From contig OX597817.1 of assembly GCA_951406725.2 (NCBI GenBank), positions 28,706,001 through 28,770,000 on the forward strand: a DNA stretch of 64,000 nucleotides, read 5' to 3'. Below are positions 95 through 50,183 of the stretch, one piece after another (position 1 is the first letter of the stretch; each line of letters opens with the position of its first letter). Under the pieces are notes generated by a model. The model searched no databases, had not been told where the DNA came from, and worked only from the letters and a program-made list of their open reading frames with translations. The position numbers were made by a program, and so were the translations under genes. Source of the stretch: Octopus vulgaris. Its lineage: Eukaryota.

Positions 95-419
95 GTGAGT
101 TTAAGAGGTAAAGCTTCCTTCAACGCAGAGTTAGAAATGCAATTATCAATTAGGTAACAGGTTTTAAACAGCAGCGATATATTCAAAATTGGTAAAACTA
201 GAAATTGTCGAGAATAAATTAAATTTATTATTGTTACTGAATATGTTAGTGTTATTTAATTTCCGAACAGTTTTGCTGCCATTTGTTTATATAGTTTGGT
301 TATGTAGTTTGATTTCTTTATCCATCAGTTTCTACTAAGATAGAGATGCGAGTAAAATTGATAAACGAAAATAAAACTTTGGAAACAGCAATGCCACCAT
401 AACTTATGTAGAAACCATA

Positions 420-596
420 GGCGCAGGAGTGGCTGTGTGGTAAGTAGCTTGCTAACCAACCACATGGTTCCGGGTTCAGTCCCACTGCGTGGCATCTTGG
501 GCAAGTGTCTTCTGCTCTGGCCCCGAGCCGACCAATGCCTTGTGAGTGGATTTGGTAGATGGAAACTGAAAGAAGCCTGTCGTATATATGTATATA

Positions 597-629
<33 letters not shown>

Positions 630-840
630 CTGTGTTTGTCCCCCTAGTATTGCTTGACAACCGATGCTGGTGTGTTTACGTCCCCCGTTACTTAGCGGTT
701 CGGCAAAAGAGACCGATAGAATAAGTACTGGGCTTACAAAAGAATAAGTCCCGGGGTCGAGTTGCTCGATTAAAGTCGTTGCTCCAGCATGGCCACAGTC
801 AAATGACTGAAACAAGTAAAAGAGTAAAAGAGTAAAGAGT
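420..840 (+). mobile_element. tRNA-derived SINE, family A, full length with internal (TA)/(TG)n
   Basis: A-box-like TGGCTGTGTGG, B-box-like GGTTCAGTCCC, CCTTGGGCAAGT-type core, 3' stem CAGTC-AAAT-GACTG and (AAAGAGT)n tail; near-identical copies at 31405, 46122 and 49954. Confidence 0.95.
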
Positions 841-6150: not shown

Positions 6151-6777
6151 AGCTTATTTTACTAGGTAAGATGGAAAGTGTCAGCTTGCACAATTTCTGC
6201 AATAACTGTTTCTATCTCTCTACATGTGCAAGTTCTGCTTATCTTGCACACACTTTCACATGTGCATTTCCCATGTGACATTGGAATACTGTTAACTTAT
6301 CATTTTACATCTGATTTTCTATGCTGGCATGGGTTTGATGGCTCTCACAGCATTTCAACACTTGCCATCCAGGCTGGACATACTGTATTGCAGTTGAGAA
6401 TTCATCTACAATAAGATTGTTGAAACCTCACATATTAGATGTCATACCTAAATGTTTCTTCCTTAATTTTTTTTACTACTGGATAGTTTTCTTATCACAA
6501 ACTATCACATACTGAGCACATTTTTCCATGTCCCTGGTTCCAGAGAGAGAGGCTCTTTATAAAGAACACTTAAGAATAACATCTAACCACTTTATAATAT
6601 AGATTGGATGCATTTTATTGCATAGCGTCAATGCTAGAGAGATTGCCCCTAGAAGGACCAAAAAGTCCCATCTATCATGTTTATTATTTATTGCTCTGTG
6701 CATGTAAGCAAAAGCAGAGTATTGTAATCACTCGTTTTATTTATTTTGAGTTCTATGGATAAGAGTTGTTTCATATA

Positions 6778-7008
6778 TATTTCTTTACTACCCACAAGGG
6801 GCTAAACACAGAGGGGTCAAACAAGGACAGACAAACGGATTAAGTCGATTACATCGACCCCAGTGCGTAACTGGTACTTGATTTATCGACCCCGAAAGGA
6901 TGAAAGGTAAAGTCGACCTCGGCGGAATTTGAACTTAGAATGTAACGACTGACGAAATACGGCTACGCATTTCGCCCGGTATGCTAACGTTTCTGCCAGC
7001 TCGCTGCC
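6778..7008 (-). mobile_element. tRNA-derived SINE, family B, young copy
   Basis: Reverse complement of the copy at 25961-26188; central CCTTTCATCCTTTCGGGGTCGATAAA block (resembles the Meta/MESC-type domain, from memory); TSD TTTCATATATAT at 6769 and 7011. Confidence 0.9.
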
Positions 7009-24329: not shown

Positions 24330-24832
24330 AATTATTAATATTAGGGAATTTATTTCCGAGTCCACAGGGGAGAGAAATTCAATATAGTGGTACTAAAACG
24401 AATTTGCCACTGTATTTTAAATATATATATAGATAGGTTTAATAGACAGAACCAGCTTCAAGCAACTCAATCAACATTGAACGACATTATCTATGATACA
24501 GATATATAAGATTAAATATTATCAACATAATACCTGCAATTACTAATCTGATTCATATACATTATATAGACTACGCGCATTTCATGACAATAAATCTATC
24601 AATATTGCTAAAGTTGAAAGTCTCGAAATTCAATACTATATCGATATGACTATACTGCCAATCATCAGGTCTGGATTATATAAAACTAGTCTATATAATG
24701 TATATGAATCAGATTAGTAATTGCAGGTATTATGTTGATAATATTTAATCTTATATATCTCTATCATAGATAATGTCGTTCAATGTTGATTGAGTTGCTT
24801 GAAGGTGGTTCTGTCTCTTAAACTTATCTATC
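24330..24832 (-). mobile_element. Penelope-like element relic with inverted partial repeat
   Basis: Arms 24429-24573 and 24687-24831 are reverse complements (about 4 mismatches by eye); hammerhead motif in the spacer; flanked by TA-rich microsatellites. Confidence 0.75.
24562..24681 (-). ncRNA. Type I hammerhead ribozyme-like motif with long stem II
   Basis: Minus strand AGAC-CTGATGA-(T TGGCAGTA...TATTGTCA T)-GAAA-TGCGCG-TA|GTCT: stem I AGAC/GTCT, core boxes at 24662-24668 and 24580-24583, near-palindromic minimal stem III. Confidence 0.7.
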
Positions 24833-24846
24833 TATCTATCTATCTA

Positions 24847-24879
<33 letters not shown>

Positions 24880-25960
24880 TTGTGCATATATTTATGTCCA
24901 TATATATATGTATTTGTGTATGTATACAAAATATTTCCAAGTAATTACTCAAAGATTTCACATAGCTCACCTTGTACTGCTCTTGTACTGACCATTTTGA
25001 TGGCAGAAGTAACAAATAGTTGATGATGTTCTGATATTCTAAATAAAATCTTGAATACATTTTAACCTGCTATCACAGATCCAAATTTTTTCTCAGGAAC
25101 AGTCAAGAAGGCTCTTTTCATCCATGAAATATAATGAATATTACTTGACATGTCATCAAAAAATGATGGCTAATTATTGTATTTTATATATATATATAAA
25201 TAAGGTACAAAATAATCACACATACAAACACTCACATTCTTCTCTTGCACACATATACTTATACGAAGTTGAAACACTATTTGATTTTCTTCTTTTCAGC
25301 ATTGTATGTTCACCATCTATTGCACACATACAAACACACACACCCATTCCCCCCTTCTACATATACACATATATACTCAGAGTTGAAATGCTGTTTGATT
25401 TTTGTTTTTTCACCGTAGTATTTCCATCATCCCACAACCACTTTGCCATCACCTCCTCCTTCTTTATTCATTTATCACTCTTTTCTTTCTCATTCATATG
25501 TTATGATGGAGAAAAACACAGGAGTATTATTATAGTAGATATTAAGAGCAATTCTACCCAGTTTATTATGTCAAGTGCTATTCAGTACTTCCAACCACTG
25601 TTTTACCTTTCAACTCAACAATGAGTAAAACTACAGCTAGGTTATCGTGCATGCATACATACATTGATTCTATGTAAGCACATGAAGCACTTTTATAGAT
25701 TGTTTACAATAAAGAATAAACATATACTTTGAGTTATATATTCAGTAACACATGTATGCTTGCATCAATAAATGTATTAAGTTCAAGTAGATAAGGCATT
25801 TTATTATAAGTTTTTTTTTTGTATCCATATTGTATATACAAAAAAAAATAAATAAACAGAGTCTCATGTGAGCGAGGGAGCTTCCACTGTCTTTTGGCAC
25901 ATGAGGAAAAGCAACGAAGCTTCTTTTGGATTACTCCCTGCACTGGACATTGTAGTTACT

Positions 25961-26188
25961 GGTGAGCTGGCAGAAACGTTAGCGCGCTGGGCGAAATGCT
26001 TAGCGATATTTCATCTGTCGTTACGTTCTGAGTTCAAATTCCACCGAGGTCGACTTTGCCTTTCATCTTTTCGGGGTCCGTTAATAAAGTACCAGTTTCG
26101 CACTGGGGTCGATGTAATTGACTTAATACCTTTGTCTGTCCTTGTTTGTCCCCTCTATGTTTAGCCCCTTGTGGGCAATAAAGAAATA
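25961..26188 (+). mobile_element. tRNA-derived SINE, family B, young copy
   Basis: GAGCTGGCAGAAACGTTAGC head, GAGTTCAAATTCC B-box, tail CCCCTTGTGGGCAATAAAGAAA; TSD ATTGTAG(T/C)TACT at 25949 and 26192. Confidence 0.9.
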
Positions 26189-28532
26189 TATATTGTAGCT
26201 ACTGTTATATAAAATATTAAAGTTCTTAAGCAGAATTGTAACAAGAGGAGAAATGAAGAAGCAGTTGGGTGCTCCTTCTCCTGAGTGCAATATGAAGGTG
26301 TGCAAAATTTCCTCTCATTTAGCATGTCTATTAATTAAGGTAAGGGCATCAAACTATCTTTTTCTCCTGGGTGAGAGCCCTTGTTACACTACTGTGTTTG
26401 ATCATAAGTTGGTTTGATTGGACCTGACTTAGGGTTAAATAATCACATCAATTTCTAATAGACTCTGAACTCACTATTTTGTGTTTCTACTCTAAACAGA
26501 TGTATATTTCCTTGTATGTACAAGAGAAGTTAACTTTCCAAACACAATATGTGCCAGGTGTATTTAAAGATCAAATGCAACAAACAGATCTAAAAGTTGT
26601 AATTGAAGAACATAAGATAATAATTGTGTGAGAAATGGAATGCAAATTTACTCAGATTATATCGTCTGTGGGCTCTAAGTTGAGTCTTTTCAGTAAAACA
26701 TCTTGATTCATGGCTTCTGATTTTTCACTTTTATGAGATTTATGTAACCAGAACAATAGCAAATACACTAAACATTAATTTGAATAATTTGTAAAACAAA
26801 TTCATCCTGCATCTTATTGATATGTTTTCATTACTTTTTGCTTCACTAAAAATGATTCTCGAGTTTTCTTTTTCTGCATTGCTAAATATCTCCTAAGTCT
26901 TACTCTCTCTCTCTTTTCCCATATCTTTTATTTATTTCCCTGATTCTTAGTCAACATTCCTTCTTTTAAATAATTTCACTCTATCTTTCTCACTAGCAGT
27001 CTAAAATCCTGGTTCACTTTTACTACACTTGTTTGAGATGATTTCTTAAAAACTGAATTGAAACTAATAATTTATCTCTCATCTTTGTACCAAACAAGTT
27101 ACTTCTCATCTCCCACTTTCTGCTTTAATGTAACTGCATCTTTTTTTCTTCTTCCAATTATTCCCTTTATCAATAAACTTTATGTTCCTTCATAAATGAA
27201 CAATTATTGCAACAGGTTGCACTTTCTTCTAGCAGCTCCTTCTTACACACATTCAAATTTTTTTTTCTCCTAATGTTTTTCCTGTCTCACAGAATGACAG
27301 TGTTCATTTCCATCTTTAGCCAGTCCTTTCTTTCTCTCTTTTCCCAATCAGTTACTGTTTTTGTTGCCCCAAATCAATTATCCACTTTTTTTTTTAAAGA
27401 TAATGATATAGAAGAATTACTAATCCTTGTTTTCATTCCCTCCACATTTTCCTCATGCACAATAATGATGATCTGTCTTTCATTGCATAAAGAACCATGT
27501 CACTAAGCTTTAGGCTTTCCACTGCCAAATACCATACTAAATAACTGGTTTCTATAAACTGAAATATAATTAAAGCAAAACTACTTTGGCAAAATCCTCA
27601 GTGCTCAAAATCAGTAACAAATGACTTAACACAGAATCTTTCATGAAAATCTTTATTGAAAATTAAATCTTCTTAGAAATAAGAAAAATAAATCAAGTTT
27701 CAACAAATATTTGTTAATAACCTAGGCTATGTTATTTATTTTTTTTCTTAATCAAAGGTATTTTCCATTTATTTAAGCCTCCATGATTCAGATAGGAATT
27801 AGAGTAATAATAGTTTAAGACAAATTATGTATGCATTGTCACCTTTTGCTGACTGTGCTTGGAGTTATTTTGTGTGTGCATTTTTTCTTCTTCTCTTTAT
27901 CATTTTCCTTAGCATATGTTCGTGGGTACATAGTTGCACACACACACACACACACACCAACGATACACATTCTCACGTCTTTTACGATATTACTGAGAAG
28001 TTTCTGGATTGATATGATAGGAATTTAACTTAATACTGCAAGCTAATGAAATACTTGTCAAATCCACTGCATTGCTTTTGCACACAGTAATGAATTATCC
28101 TTCTCATGTGGAAACTGTTAGCATTCAGTTGACTGAGCCATTGAAAACTAAAGGTCTTTGACACAGCCATATAACAGTGCTGATGACAGTATATATATAT
28201 GAATCTTTTAACTACTTTTTCAATGACATATGGCATTCAGATATACACATAGTGTCCAGCAAATCAGTGTTATACTTCACCATTTAAACAATGGTGAAAC
28301 TATTGTGTTGACTTGTTTTGTAAAAACGTAGAATTTGTAGATGTAGAACCTGTTTCAAATATGCTTGAGAGTTTGTTATGAAAGCTTTGCTTGCAATATC
28401 AACATAGCGTATTCTATAATAAATTTGACTATGAGAAGATTATAGGTAAAATCATAATGAATAGAATGAGAATGGGTTATCGGAAGGCCAGTGATGTATA
28501 ATGATCATTTAAAAATGTTTCATTAATATATA

Positions 28533-31280: not shown

Positions 31281-31404
31281 CACTTCTCTTATTTATTTTT
31301 ATTTATAACTTTTCTGTTTTTATTTATTTGTTCAGTGTCCTTCACTTTTCTCTTTCTTTGTCTTTTTAAATCTACAAAATTTTGAAAAATTTCACCGACA
31401 TATA

Positions 31405-31809
31405 GGCGCAGGAGTGGCTGTGTGGTAAGTAGCTTGTTTACCAACCACGTGGTTCCGGGTTCAGTCCCACTGCGTGGCACCTTAGGCAAGTGTCTTCTAC
31501 TGTAGCCTCGGGCCGACCAATGCCTTGTGAGTGGATTTGGTAGACGGAAACTGAAAGAAGCCTGTCATATATATGTATATATATATATATGTGTGTGTGT
31601 GTTTGTGTGTCTGTGTTTGTCCCCCTAGCATTGCTTGACAACCGATGCTGGTGTGTGTATGTCCCCGTTACTTAGCAGTTCGGCAAAAGAGACTGATAGA
31701 ATAAGTACTGGGCTTACAATAGAATAAGTCCTGGGGTCGAGTTGTCCTGGTGCTCCAGCATGGCCGCAGTCAAATGACTGAAACAAGTAAAAGTGTAAGA
31801 AAAAGAGTA
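31405..31809 (+). mobile_element. tRNA-derived SINE, family A, full length
   Basis: Near-identical to 420-840. Confidence 0.95.
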
Positions 31810-45053: not shown

Positions 45054-45204
45054 AATATGTATGATCTGTGTGTTTTTTAATGAATGTCACTGTGGGTGAA
45101 TTTGTTTTTATATTGTTGTATTGCTTTGTATGCTGATGTTTAAGGTTATCTATAATTAACTAGTGTCTGTAAGATTTTATTTAGTGCTTCACTACACACA
45201 TAGT

Positions 45205-45590
<386 letters not shown>

Positions 45591-46121
45591 TTTTACACAT
45601 ATCTACATTGTTTAGAAATTCACCTCACATCATTACTGGTTTTGTTCTAGTGTAGTATGACACTTTGGATAAGAGCATTCTTTTACAACCTGAGCTAAAC
45701 TCTGTTTTGTGAGTAATTTTGGTTGATAGAGAGTATGTGGAAAAGCATTGTACATGTAGGTACACAAATGATTTTGTAGCATCCTTGATTCTACAGCCTT
45801 GGCAGATTAAGCAATTTGCTGGAAGATCTATTGCCGTGTAATAATGATTCAACACACACCTAACTTACTAATTATATACTTCCCATGTGGCTTAGGTATC
45901 ACGAATTGGTAGAAACTGAAATTAAATAAATACGGGGTATTGAATATGAATTTGATAGATGAAATACAGGTAGTTGTGCATATTTGACTCTACCACTGAT
46001 GCTGTCATTTCTTTTATCTATAGTAGCCATAGTTAAGGGTAACTTTAAGCTAAATTAGCAGAATCTCTCTCAAAATTTTGCTAATGGTGGAAATAATGCA
46101 TATAAAAATATGATATACACA

Positions 46122-46530
46122 GCAGGCGTGGCTGTGTGGTAAGTAGCTTGTTTACCAACCACATGGTTCCGGGTTCAGTCCCACTGCGTGGCACCTTGGG
46201 CAAGTGTCTTCTACTATAGCCTCGAGCTGACCAAAGCCTTGTGAGTGGATTTGTTAGACAGAAACTGAAAGAAGCCTGTCGTATATATGTATATATATAT
46301 ATATGTGTGTGTGTGTGCATGTATGTTTGTGTGTCTGTGTTTGTACCCCTAGCATTGCTTGACAACCGATGCTGGTGTGTTTATGTCCCCATTACTTAGC
46401 GGTTCGGCAAAAGAGACCGATAGAATAAGTACTGAGCTTACAAAAGAATAAGTCCCGGGGTCGATTTGCTCGACTAAAGGCGGTGCTCCAGCATGGCCAC
46501 AGTCAACTGACTGAATCAAATAAAAGAGTA
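46122..46530 (+). mobile_element. tRNA-derived SINE, family A, near full length
   Basis: Near-identical to 420-840. Confidence 0.95.
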
Positions 46531-49860: not shown

Positions 49861-49953
49861 ACCTCCTTTCTTAAATTATATTTTTAAATTTTGTTTTATC
49901 TTTTTAACTATACTTGTGACATAATTTTATCTTAAGAAATGTGTATAGTTTTA

Positions 49954-50122
49954 GGCGCAGGATTGGCTGTGTGGTAAGTAACTTGCTTACCAACCACATG
50001 GTTCCGGGTTCAGTCCCACTGCGTGGCACCTTGGGCAAGTGTTTTCTACTATAGCCTTGGGCCGACCAAAGCCTTGTGAGTGGATTTGGTAGGCAGAAAC
50101 TGAAAGAAGCCCATTGAATATA

Positions 50123-50183
<61 letters not shown>

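What the first reader, a model, noticed from the sequence alone, without database searches (positions are those of the whole stretch)
24330..24832. Hammerhead ribozyme with extended stem II inside ~145-bp inverted arms that start at the predicted cleavage site
Seen: arms 24429-24573 and 24687-24831 differ at about 4 positions. The spacer on the minus strand holds CTGATGA...GAAA-TGCGCG-TA|GTCT with stem I AGAC/GTCT. About 78 nt lie between the core boxes and can fold as a long hairpin (TGGCAGTA/TATTGTCA, TATCGATAT/ATATTGATA, TTGAA/TTCAA). The inverted copy begins within 2 nt of the predicted cleavage site (24572/24571). Established: Penelope-like elements carry minimal type I hammerheads with palindromic stem III in their pseudo-LTRs and often show inverted partial repeats. 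Inference: this is a non-autonomous PLE whose RNA end was set by self-cleavage; the long stem II may mark a lineage-specific variant. Deviations (U-U at 10.1/11.1, U-G in stem III) suggest this copy may be impaired.
Basis: partly seen in the sequence, partly recalled or inferred. Interest (0 to 1): 0.75.

Follow-up and report, generated by a model that had tools for sequence, protein, structure and literature searches.

The report
Long-armed hammerhead in Penelope retrotransposon end
This is a clipped, back-to-back insertion of a known kind of jumping gene whose predicted self-cutting RNA has an unusually long, conserved arm; many copies begin near the predicted cut, but the pattern likely reflects the copying enzyme stopping at the folded, uncut RNA rather than at a cut end.

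Summary
In detail: 145-bp inverted arms with 4 mismatches, and a type I hammerhead with 78 nt between the core boxes. It is the 5'-truncated end repeat, plus an inverted copy and tail, of a Hydra-clade Penelope-like retrotransposon; longer copies run into a GIY-YIG endonuclease ORF, so non-autonomy is not shown. The long stem II is real: spacers of 16-103 nt across sister families, with the basal 12 bp paired in 116 of 144 cells and two-sided changes. U-U at its base is the Hydra norm, not damage. Copy starts are enriched at the cut site (10 vs 3.0-3.9 expected, window copy excluded), and 31 of 86 copies of sister family D start within +14..-4. But 11 of 16 starts at 0..-5 lie 2-5 nt past the scissile bond, and the window's TA overlap matches the usual junction microhomology. 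That favours a reverse-transcriptase stop on uncleaved RNA; some run-off from cleaved RNA is not excluded. Cleavage is untested. In a short-stem sister family, 35 of 58 copies derive from spliced, uncut RNA. The scan noted long-stem Hydra hammerheads and this kind of splice site before on other DNA.

The parts
24330..24420 (-). Optional 'tail' of the PLE end, present on this arm only; likely the product of the more distal of two reverse-transcription start sites
   Evidence: Found in 95 of 228 anchored copies. The two-start explanation is by analogy with Poseidon_Ac (PMC11167929). In tandem sister copies the equivalent stretch runs on into the next ORF start.
24421..24435 (-). TATC/TA microsatellite between element end and tail
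   Evidence: Sequence; 216 of 228 copies are followed by such a repeat
24436..24688 (-). Forward 5'-truncated copy of the PLE end repeat, subfamily A, starting at -117 from the predicted cut
   Evidence: 24688-24429 matches the subfamily A majority at 245 of 260; break position
24669..24672 (-). Hammerhead stem I, 5' strand
   Evidence: first pair varies A-U / U-A / C-G across families
24662..24668 (-). Core box CUGANGA (N7 = U here, A in the family majority)
24584..24661 (-). 78-nt stem II domain: U-U at the base, then a long hairpin
   Evidence: First 8 pairs have probability 0.91-1.0 in the isolated motif; covariation across families; 16-103 nt in relatives
24573..24583 (-). GAAA box and palindromic stem III (perfect 8-nt palindrome in the majority; C15.2>U in this copy)
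24568..24572 (-). A17, predicted scissile bond 24572|24571, and stem I 3' strand
   Evidence: cleavage is predicted only
24687..24688 (.). 2-nt TA microhomology at the head-to-head junction
   Evidence: 14 of 16 direct inverted junctions overlap by at least 1 nt, 12 of 16 by at least 2 nt
24687..24831 (+). Inverted 5'-truncated copy starting at -2..0 from the predicted cut; no ribozyme core, no tail
   Evidence: 141 of 145 to the subfamily A majority; shares two derived changes with the forward copy
24825..24880 (+). (TATC)n(TA)n microsatellite at the other end of the insertion
   Evidence: Sequence

Best explanation
The locus is a head-to-head pair of short copies of the end repeat of a Penelope-like retrotransposon, likely of the Hydra clade, set in a TA microsatellite, and one copy carries a predicted type I hammerhead whose 78-nt stem II is conserved among sister families. 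Shown: the arrangement; hundreds of genomic copies; linkage of subfamily B and C copies to a GIY-YIG ORF; conservation and covariation of the ribozyme fold; an excess of copy starts at the ribozyme's 3' edge. Inferred: the element's RT/endonuclease nicked both strands of a (TA)n target and primed two cDNAs from internal start sites downstream of the ribozyme, one including the tail. One cDNA read through the whole ribozyme to -117. The other stopped at -2, just past the scissile bond, where it would meet the folded core and GC-rich stem III. The two ends were joined through a shared TA. The template was therefore most likely uncut. The ribozyme is predicted to cut only as a dimer or with protein help, and this inserted copy is probably inactive because its arms would pair over the cut site.
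For: 458 candidates for the 271-nt stretch. ORF linkage; GIY-YIG E 0.0012, below Pfam's cut-off. Hydra motifs in the intact 828-aa sister ORF L116. 159 of 166 A/B/C copies that reach the cut site read through it. 11 of 16 starts at 0..-5 lie at -2 or beyond, against a 0.15 chance extension rate (p about 2e-6). 12 of 16 direct inverted junctions have at least 2 nt overlap. In the short-stem sister family only 1 of 65 copies at risk starts at -2..0, and 35 of 58 are spliced with the ribozyme read through. In the full inverted-repeat context stem I pairing probability is 0.0, vs 0.66-0.74 for the isolated motif. In Poseidon_Ac, uncut RNA is the dominant insertion substrate in vitro and cleavage needs the protein (PMC11167929).
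Against: The top 3-nt window by count in A/B/C is exactly -2..0 (7 starts; three other non-overlapping windows reach 6), and 5 pooled starts lie at 0 or -1, as run-off would give. The skew to +1..+14 in family D also fits cleavage followed by trimming. Break positions come from an alignment script on AT-rich, 5-15% diverged copies; one call was hand-corrected, and flanks next to junctions may be richer in TA than the 0.15 used. The short-stem family also has starts at +7..+12 in a T run, so local sequence alone can cluster starts. No tree was built for clade placement. Nothing was tested biochemically.
Confidence: 0.6

Rival explanations
1. Same element, but the inverted arm was copied from the 3' product of ribozyme self-cleavage: RT ran off at the cut, the join was blunt, and the TA match is chance.
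For: Starts at -2..0 are enriched: A/B/C 6 of 165 without the window copy vs 1.8-2.1 expected (p 0.01-0.02); family D 4 of 41 (p 0.02-0.07); pooled 10 vs 3.0-3.9 (p 0.001-0.007). The start rate falls just upstream (pooled 0.0088/nt at +1..+20, 0.0024/nt at -22..-3). The core is conserved, so cleavage is plausible.
Against: Run-off predicts most apparent starts at 0 or -1; observed 5 there and 11 at -2..-5. Blunt inverted joins are 2 of 16. Frangieh et al. found no RNA-seq reads ending at the PAc cut site.
Confidence: 0.2
2. Same element, but the closeness of the arm start to the cut site is a coincidence of ordinary 5' truncation at a TA dinucleotide prone to microhomology joining.
For: Other windows hold 6 starts, and windows at -329 and -264 have a higher rate per copy at risk. 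TA-rich positions attract starts. The expected background is about a third of the observed count.
Against: The excess at a position named in advance replicates in an independent family, where 31 of 86 starts lie in 19 nt and 10 in the next 112 nt.
Confidence: 0.15
3. It is a dedicated non-autonomous element (retrozyme or MITE-like hairpin) mobilised in trans.
For: No ORF in the window. No ORF-linked subfamily A copy among the 40 scored hits. The longest A copy ran to the end of the reference (-377) and then into a TA repeat.
Against: 5' ends are staggered; no tandem unit; A is 89/100 identical to B upstream of the ribozyme, and B and C copies run into the endonuclease ORF.
Confidence: 0.05

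Closest known systems
Hydra clade of C-terminal EN+ Penelope-like elements, incl. Hydra-1_Obim (Craig et al. 2021, PMC8557442; passages, section 11, supplement parts 1, 2 and 52 of 59 read)
   Same: DKT, CxCX5C linker, CxxC and CxH in the EN, (TA)n targets, inverted 5'-truncated copies, optional tail; hammerhead with U-U flanking stem II and palindromic stem III.
   Different: Stem-loop II is about 11-24 nt in all Hydra rows of File S2 (longest row of the table, a non-Hydra element, about 53 nt) vs 78 nt here and up to 103 nt in relatives. The tail is about 90 nt rather than 30-40. KWK stands for RWK. The hammerhead sequence differs from that of Hydra-1_Obim.
Minimal type I hammerheads of metazoan PLEs (Cervera and de la Pena 2014, PMC4209133; parts 1-2 of 4 read)
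   Same: Core boxes, short helix I, palindromic helix III implying dimer cleavage, location in the pLTR.
   Different: Their helix II is 6-8 bp with a conserved G10.1-C11.1. Here the basal helix is about 10 bp and more follows, and the first pair is U-U, G-U or G-C.
Poseidon_Ac of the green anole (Frangieh et al. 2024, PMC11167929; parts 1-2 of 4 read)
   Same: Internal RT starts giving an optional tail, both strands extended, AT-rich target, uncut RNA as the main template.
   Different: Different clade; its ribozyme overlaps the start codon; no pile-up of copy starts at the ribozyme is described in the parts read.
Metazoan non-LTR retrozymes (bioRxiv 10.64898/2026.07.22.740005, part 1 of 5 read; PMC7229834, search listing only)
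   Same: Type I hammerhead in a PLE-related repeat.
   Different: No tandem non-coding unit; longer copies are coding.

Membership tests
Type I hammerhead ribozyme | Core CUGANGA, GAAA, UH in order | tested here: met
   Both boxes intact in 90 of 129 copies spanning the motif, which were not selected on the core.
Type I hammerhead ribozyme | Stems I and II pair, with covariation | tested here: met
   116 of 144 cells paired in 12 long groups, slid controls 41-68, 0 of 2000 column shuffles reach it, 4 of 12 pairs with two-sided changes. Groups are related and 6 of the 12 are single copies, so this is not a probability.
Type I hammerhead ribozyme | Match to an Rfam hammerhead model | tested here: not met
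   no hammerhead among 19 matches at E<=10. The long insert is a likely reason (inference).
Type I hammerhead ribozyme | Site-specific self-cleavage | not testable with these tools
   Needs an in vitro assay or raw RNA ends; only contig runs were offered.
EN+ Penelope-like element | RT plus C-terminal GIY-YIG ORF upstream of the repeat | tested here: met
   EN fragments continuous with subfamily B and C copies (weak Pfam hit). An intact RT+EN ORF was seen only in a sister family (L116); the EN pieces are 42-80% identical to it. Not shown for subfamily A.
EN+ Penelope-like element | 5'-truncated, tandem or inverted copies with an optional tail | tested here: met
   39 inverted pairs; tail in 95 of 228; tandem pLTR-ORF in sister copies.
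Hydra clade | CxCX5C linker; CxxC and CxH around the conserved E and N | tested here: met
   L034, L053, L054 (long-stem family) and L116 against the definition.
Hydra clade | DKT and RWK motifs in the RT | tested here: inconclusive
   DKT and KWK in sister ORF L116; that region was not recovered for the long-stem family.
Hydra clade | Insertion into (TA)n | tested here: met
   216 of 228 copies are followed by a TA/TATC/TC repeat.
Hydra clade | Phylogenetic placement with published Hydra ORFs; absence of CCHH | not tested
   No tree or alignment with published consensus sequences was made.
Non-LTR retrozyme | At least two tandem non-coding units each with a hammerhead | tested here: not met
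   One hammerhead at the locus; longer copies run into an ORF.

The most novel reading that the evidence does not exclude
The 5' ends of these copies are a fossil footprint of the ribozyme inside the transposition complex. In long-stem-II families RT halts at the 3' edge of the folded, mostly uncut hammerhead (with a minority of true run-off from cleaved RNA), while short-stem families read through to the capped end of a spliced mRNA. Stem II length (16-103 nt) would then tune how far copies extend, giving a natural series to test what PLE hammerheads do in vivo.
Probability: 0.3. Interest if true: 0.65.

Novelty: new variant of a known kind. Interest (0 to 1): 0.4.

Why it matters
The role of hammerheads in endonuclease-bearing Penelope elements is stated to be unclear (PMC8557442), and the one in vitro study found cleavage dispensable (PMC11167929). 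Here one genome holds sister families whose stem II runs from 16 to 103 nt around an unchanged core, and the copy ends can be mapped against the cut site. That gives a ready series for cleavage and RT-pausing assays, and shows that motifs this long escape Rfam. The locus itself is one aged, probably inactive insertion.

Tried and rejected
Rfam E-value scan: no hammerhead. Whole-motif folding z-score: uninformative. Pfam on EN fragments and full ORFs: one sub-threshold GIY-YIG hit only. Homolog search with a short EN fragment found nothing; the 828-aa ORF gave 515 hits, almost all unnamed. Neptune clade was my first guess from memory and was dropped after reading the Hydra definition. Expression: no RNA holder listed; the four runs laid were contigs and cannot show RNA ends. 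The first break-point run over-extended in AT-rich DNA and gave a false cluster at +3; it was redone with stricter scoring, and one remaining fold-back artefact (L194-960) was moved by hand from 0 to +23 before counting. The upstream background rate was not relied on because loci were chosen for holding the ribozyme or upstream DNA. The MAFFT alignment of diverse long stems misaligned the basal helix, so pairs were counted gap-free from the core outward. No recurrent spliced exon was seen in families A-D. Lunse et al. 2017 (PMC5785218) is not held and is known only as cited in PMC6765202; it may describe longer stem II variants.

Full report
1. Observation. The two arms (24429-24573, 24687-24831) are 145 nt with 4 mismatches. 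The minus strand carries a type I hammerhead: stem I 24672-24669 with 24571-24568, core 24668-24662, a 78-nt spacer, GAAA 24583-24580, a palindromic stem III and a predicted cut at 24572|24571. Rfam does not detect it, and the isolated sequence folds no better than shuffles, so the evidence had to come from relatives.

2. What the element is. The 2.8-Gb animal genome (octopus-like by recall of its repeats and by earlier scan notes; not tested) holds 458 candidates for the ribozyme plus arm. Two 30-nt anchors downstream of the cut gave 135 and 190 matches, partly overlapping, with 0 for the reversed controls. From the loci fetched I recovered 228 distinct anchored copies in three subfamilies; the window is subfamily A (245 of 260 and 141 of 145 to its majority). 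Copies share a fixed 3' end, followed by a TA/TATC/TC repeat in 216 of 228 and a ~90-nt tail in 95 of 228; 5' ends are staggered. Long B and C copies continue about 0.8 kb upstream of the ribozyme into the C-terminus of a GIY-YIG ORF. A protein search found 2,985 candidates and sister families with intact RT+EN frames of up to 828 aa. Their motifs (KWK, DKT, CxCX5C, CxxC, CxH) match the published Hydra clade (PMC8557442 section 11); no tree was built. The window is thus a 5'-truncated end repeat with an inverted copy on one side and the tail on the other, the standard PLE insertion shape. Both arms share two derived changes against the majority, as expected from one source template.

3. The long stem II. 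A motif scan of the loci then held found 221 hammerheads with spacers from 16 to 103 nt (the pattern selects for the core). Length varies at the apex while the base stays. The larger long groups fold as hairpins (z -2.6, -3.7, -4.4, -6.6, -7.3); some single aged copies do not (L098, z +0.5). Between majorities, core plus stems I/III are 27/27 (A, B, C) and 25/27 (against D), the basal stem 16-21 of 22-24, the flanks 54-89%. Counting gap-free from the core in 12 long groups, 116 of 144 cells pair, against 41-68 when slid and 0 of 2000 column shuffles; 4 of 12 pairs show two-sided changes, and one alternates G-U and A-C. In File S2 of PMC8557442 all Hydra stem-loops II are about 11-24 nt, and U-U at the base is the common state, so that mismatch is not damage. 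I found no paper on long stem II in PLE hammerheads, but Lunse et al. 2017 is not held, and the supplements of PMC4209133 and of the bioRxiv preprint were not read. The scan noted long-stem Hydra hammerheads before (e1-8669291, e1-9545524, e1-9560118).

4. Is this copy active? It has C15.2>U, which weakens the dimer helix from -13.3 to -9.7 kcal/mol. In a read-through transcript the arms would pair over the cut site: stem I probability is 0.0, vs 0.66-0.74 alone. It is predicted to be inactive, for a reason other than the one first given.

5. Does cleavage set the 5' end? For the reading: in A/B/C, 7 of 166 copies at risk start at -2..0, the top 3-nt window by count among 146, vs 1.8-2.1 expected from the downstream rate. 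Without the window copy it is 6 of 165 (p 0.01-0.02). In independent family D (86 copies) 4 of 41 start there, and 31 start within +14..-4 against 10 in the next 112 nt. Pooled, 10 vs 3.0-3.9 (p 0.001-0.007). Against it: 159 of 166 read through; three other windows reach 6, and two have a higher rate per copy at risk. If RNA were cut at 0, letters -1 and -2 would be absent from the template and could match only by chance (TA 0.15, GTA 0.015 in flanks). Yet 11 of 16 pooled starts at 0..-5 lie at -2 or beyond, 5 of them at -3 or beyond (p about 2e-6; counts entered by hand). Of 39 inverted pairs, 16 join directly, and 14 of these overlap by at least 1 nt, 12 by at least 2, so the window's TA looks like ordinary joining microhomology and places the cDNA end past the scissile bond. 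I read this as RT stopping at the 3' edge of a folded or protein-bound, uncut ribozyme, with a possible minority of run-off. Caveats: script-derived break points in AT-rich aged copies, one hand correction, and samples that are parts of each family (100 of 135 and about 100 of 190 anchor hits; for D, loci from 84 and 36 pattern hits plus 25 chosen for holding the ribozyme). I found no paper mapping PLE copy ends to the hammerhead cut.

6. A control family. A young short-stem sister family has 2,943 exact anchor matches. Among 90 copies from the first 120 Mb of one contig, 1 of 65 at risk starts at -2..0. Instead, 35 of the 58 that reach a splice acceptor 9 nt upstream of stem I carry a short spliced first exon; 21 keep the intron and 2 are neither (about two of the 35 rest on few letters). 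Matching GT donors exist in long copies, and alternative donors give the matching alternative junctions. These copies came from spliced RNA read through the ribozyme. PLEs are described as intron-retaining (PMC8557442; PMC2377424 passages); one search found no report of such spliced copies. The scan noted a PLE splice acceptor before (e1-8670049), which I saw.

7. Mechanism. Inferred steps, by analogy with Poseidon_Ac (PMC11167929): nicks on both strands of a (TA)n target; two cDNAs from internal starts, one with the tail; one stops at -117 and one at -2; joining through TA. Cleavage, if it occurs, would need dimers through the palindrome or protein help (PMC4209133; PMC6765202 passages) and would act at another stage.

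8. Verdict. A real and conserved structural variant of a known ribozyme in a known element class. New variant of a known kind; interest 0.4.

Noticed in passing
L321-L398 (short-stem sister family, contig C1); donors in L116, L122, L133: 35 of 58 copies reaching the acceptor are spliced (short first exon joined 9 nt upstream of stem I); many form head-to-head pairs about 230-260 nt apart. These are retrotransposed 5' ends of spliced PLE mRNA, against the usual picture of intron retention.
   Followed up: partly
L296-L320, L405-L484 (family D): 31 of 86 copies start within +14..-4 of the predicted cut, a much stronger pile-up than in the window's family; stem II occurs as 67, 79, 89 and 103-nt forms.
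   Followed up: partly
L116:2485-4968, L117, L118, L119: Near-intact 695-828-aa RT+GIY-YIG ORFs with a long Asn-rich linker; local Pfam finds neither domain.
   Followed up: partly
L165:950-1700: Inverted pair in which both arms begin near the cut site and are preceded by degenerate sequence resembling the region upstream of stem I, as if the ribozyme body had been skipped.
   Followed up: no
A/B/C copies, positions -329..-327 and -264..-263 from the cut: Two further clusters of 5' ends (6 of 50 and 5 of 66 at risk) with no shared upstream sequence; cause unknown.
   Followed up: no
window 417-635, 31402-31620, 46116-46334, 49951-50169; 6773-7002 / 25964-26193: Dispersed 82-91% identical repeats, and a 230-nt inverted pair 19 kb apart; probably ordinary SINE copies (identity recalled, not tested).
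   Followed up: no
window 45200-45650: Long compound TA/CA/TATG microsatellite.
   Followed up: no
Subfamily C copies such as L053, L207, L223: A variant lacks part of the 3' strand of stem I and has a short duplication downstream; 14 motifs group this way.
   Followed up: no
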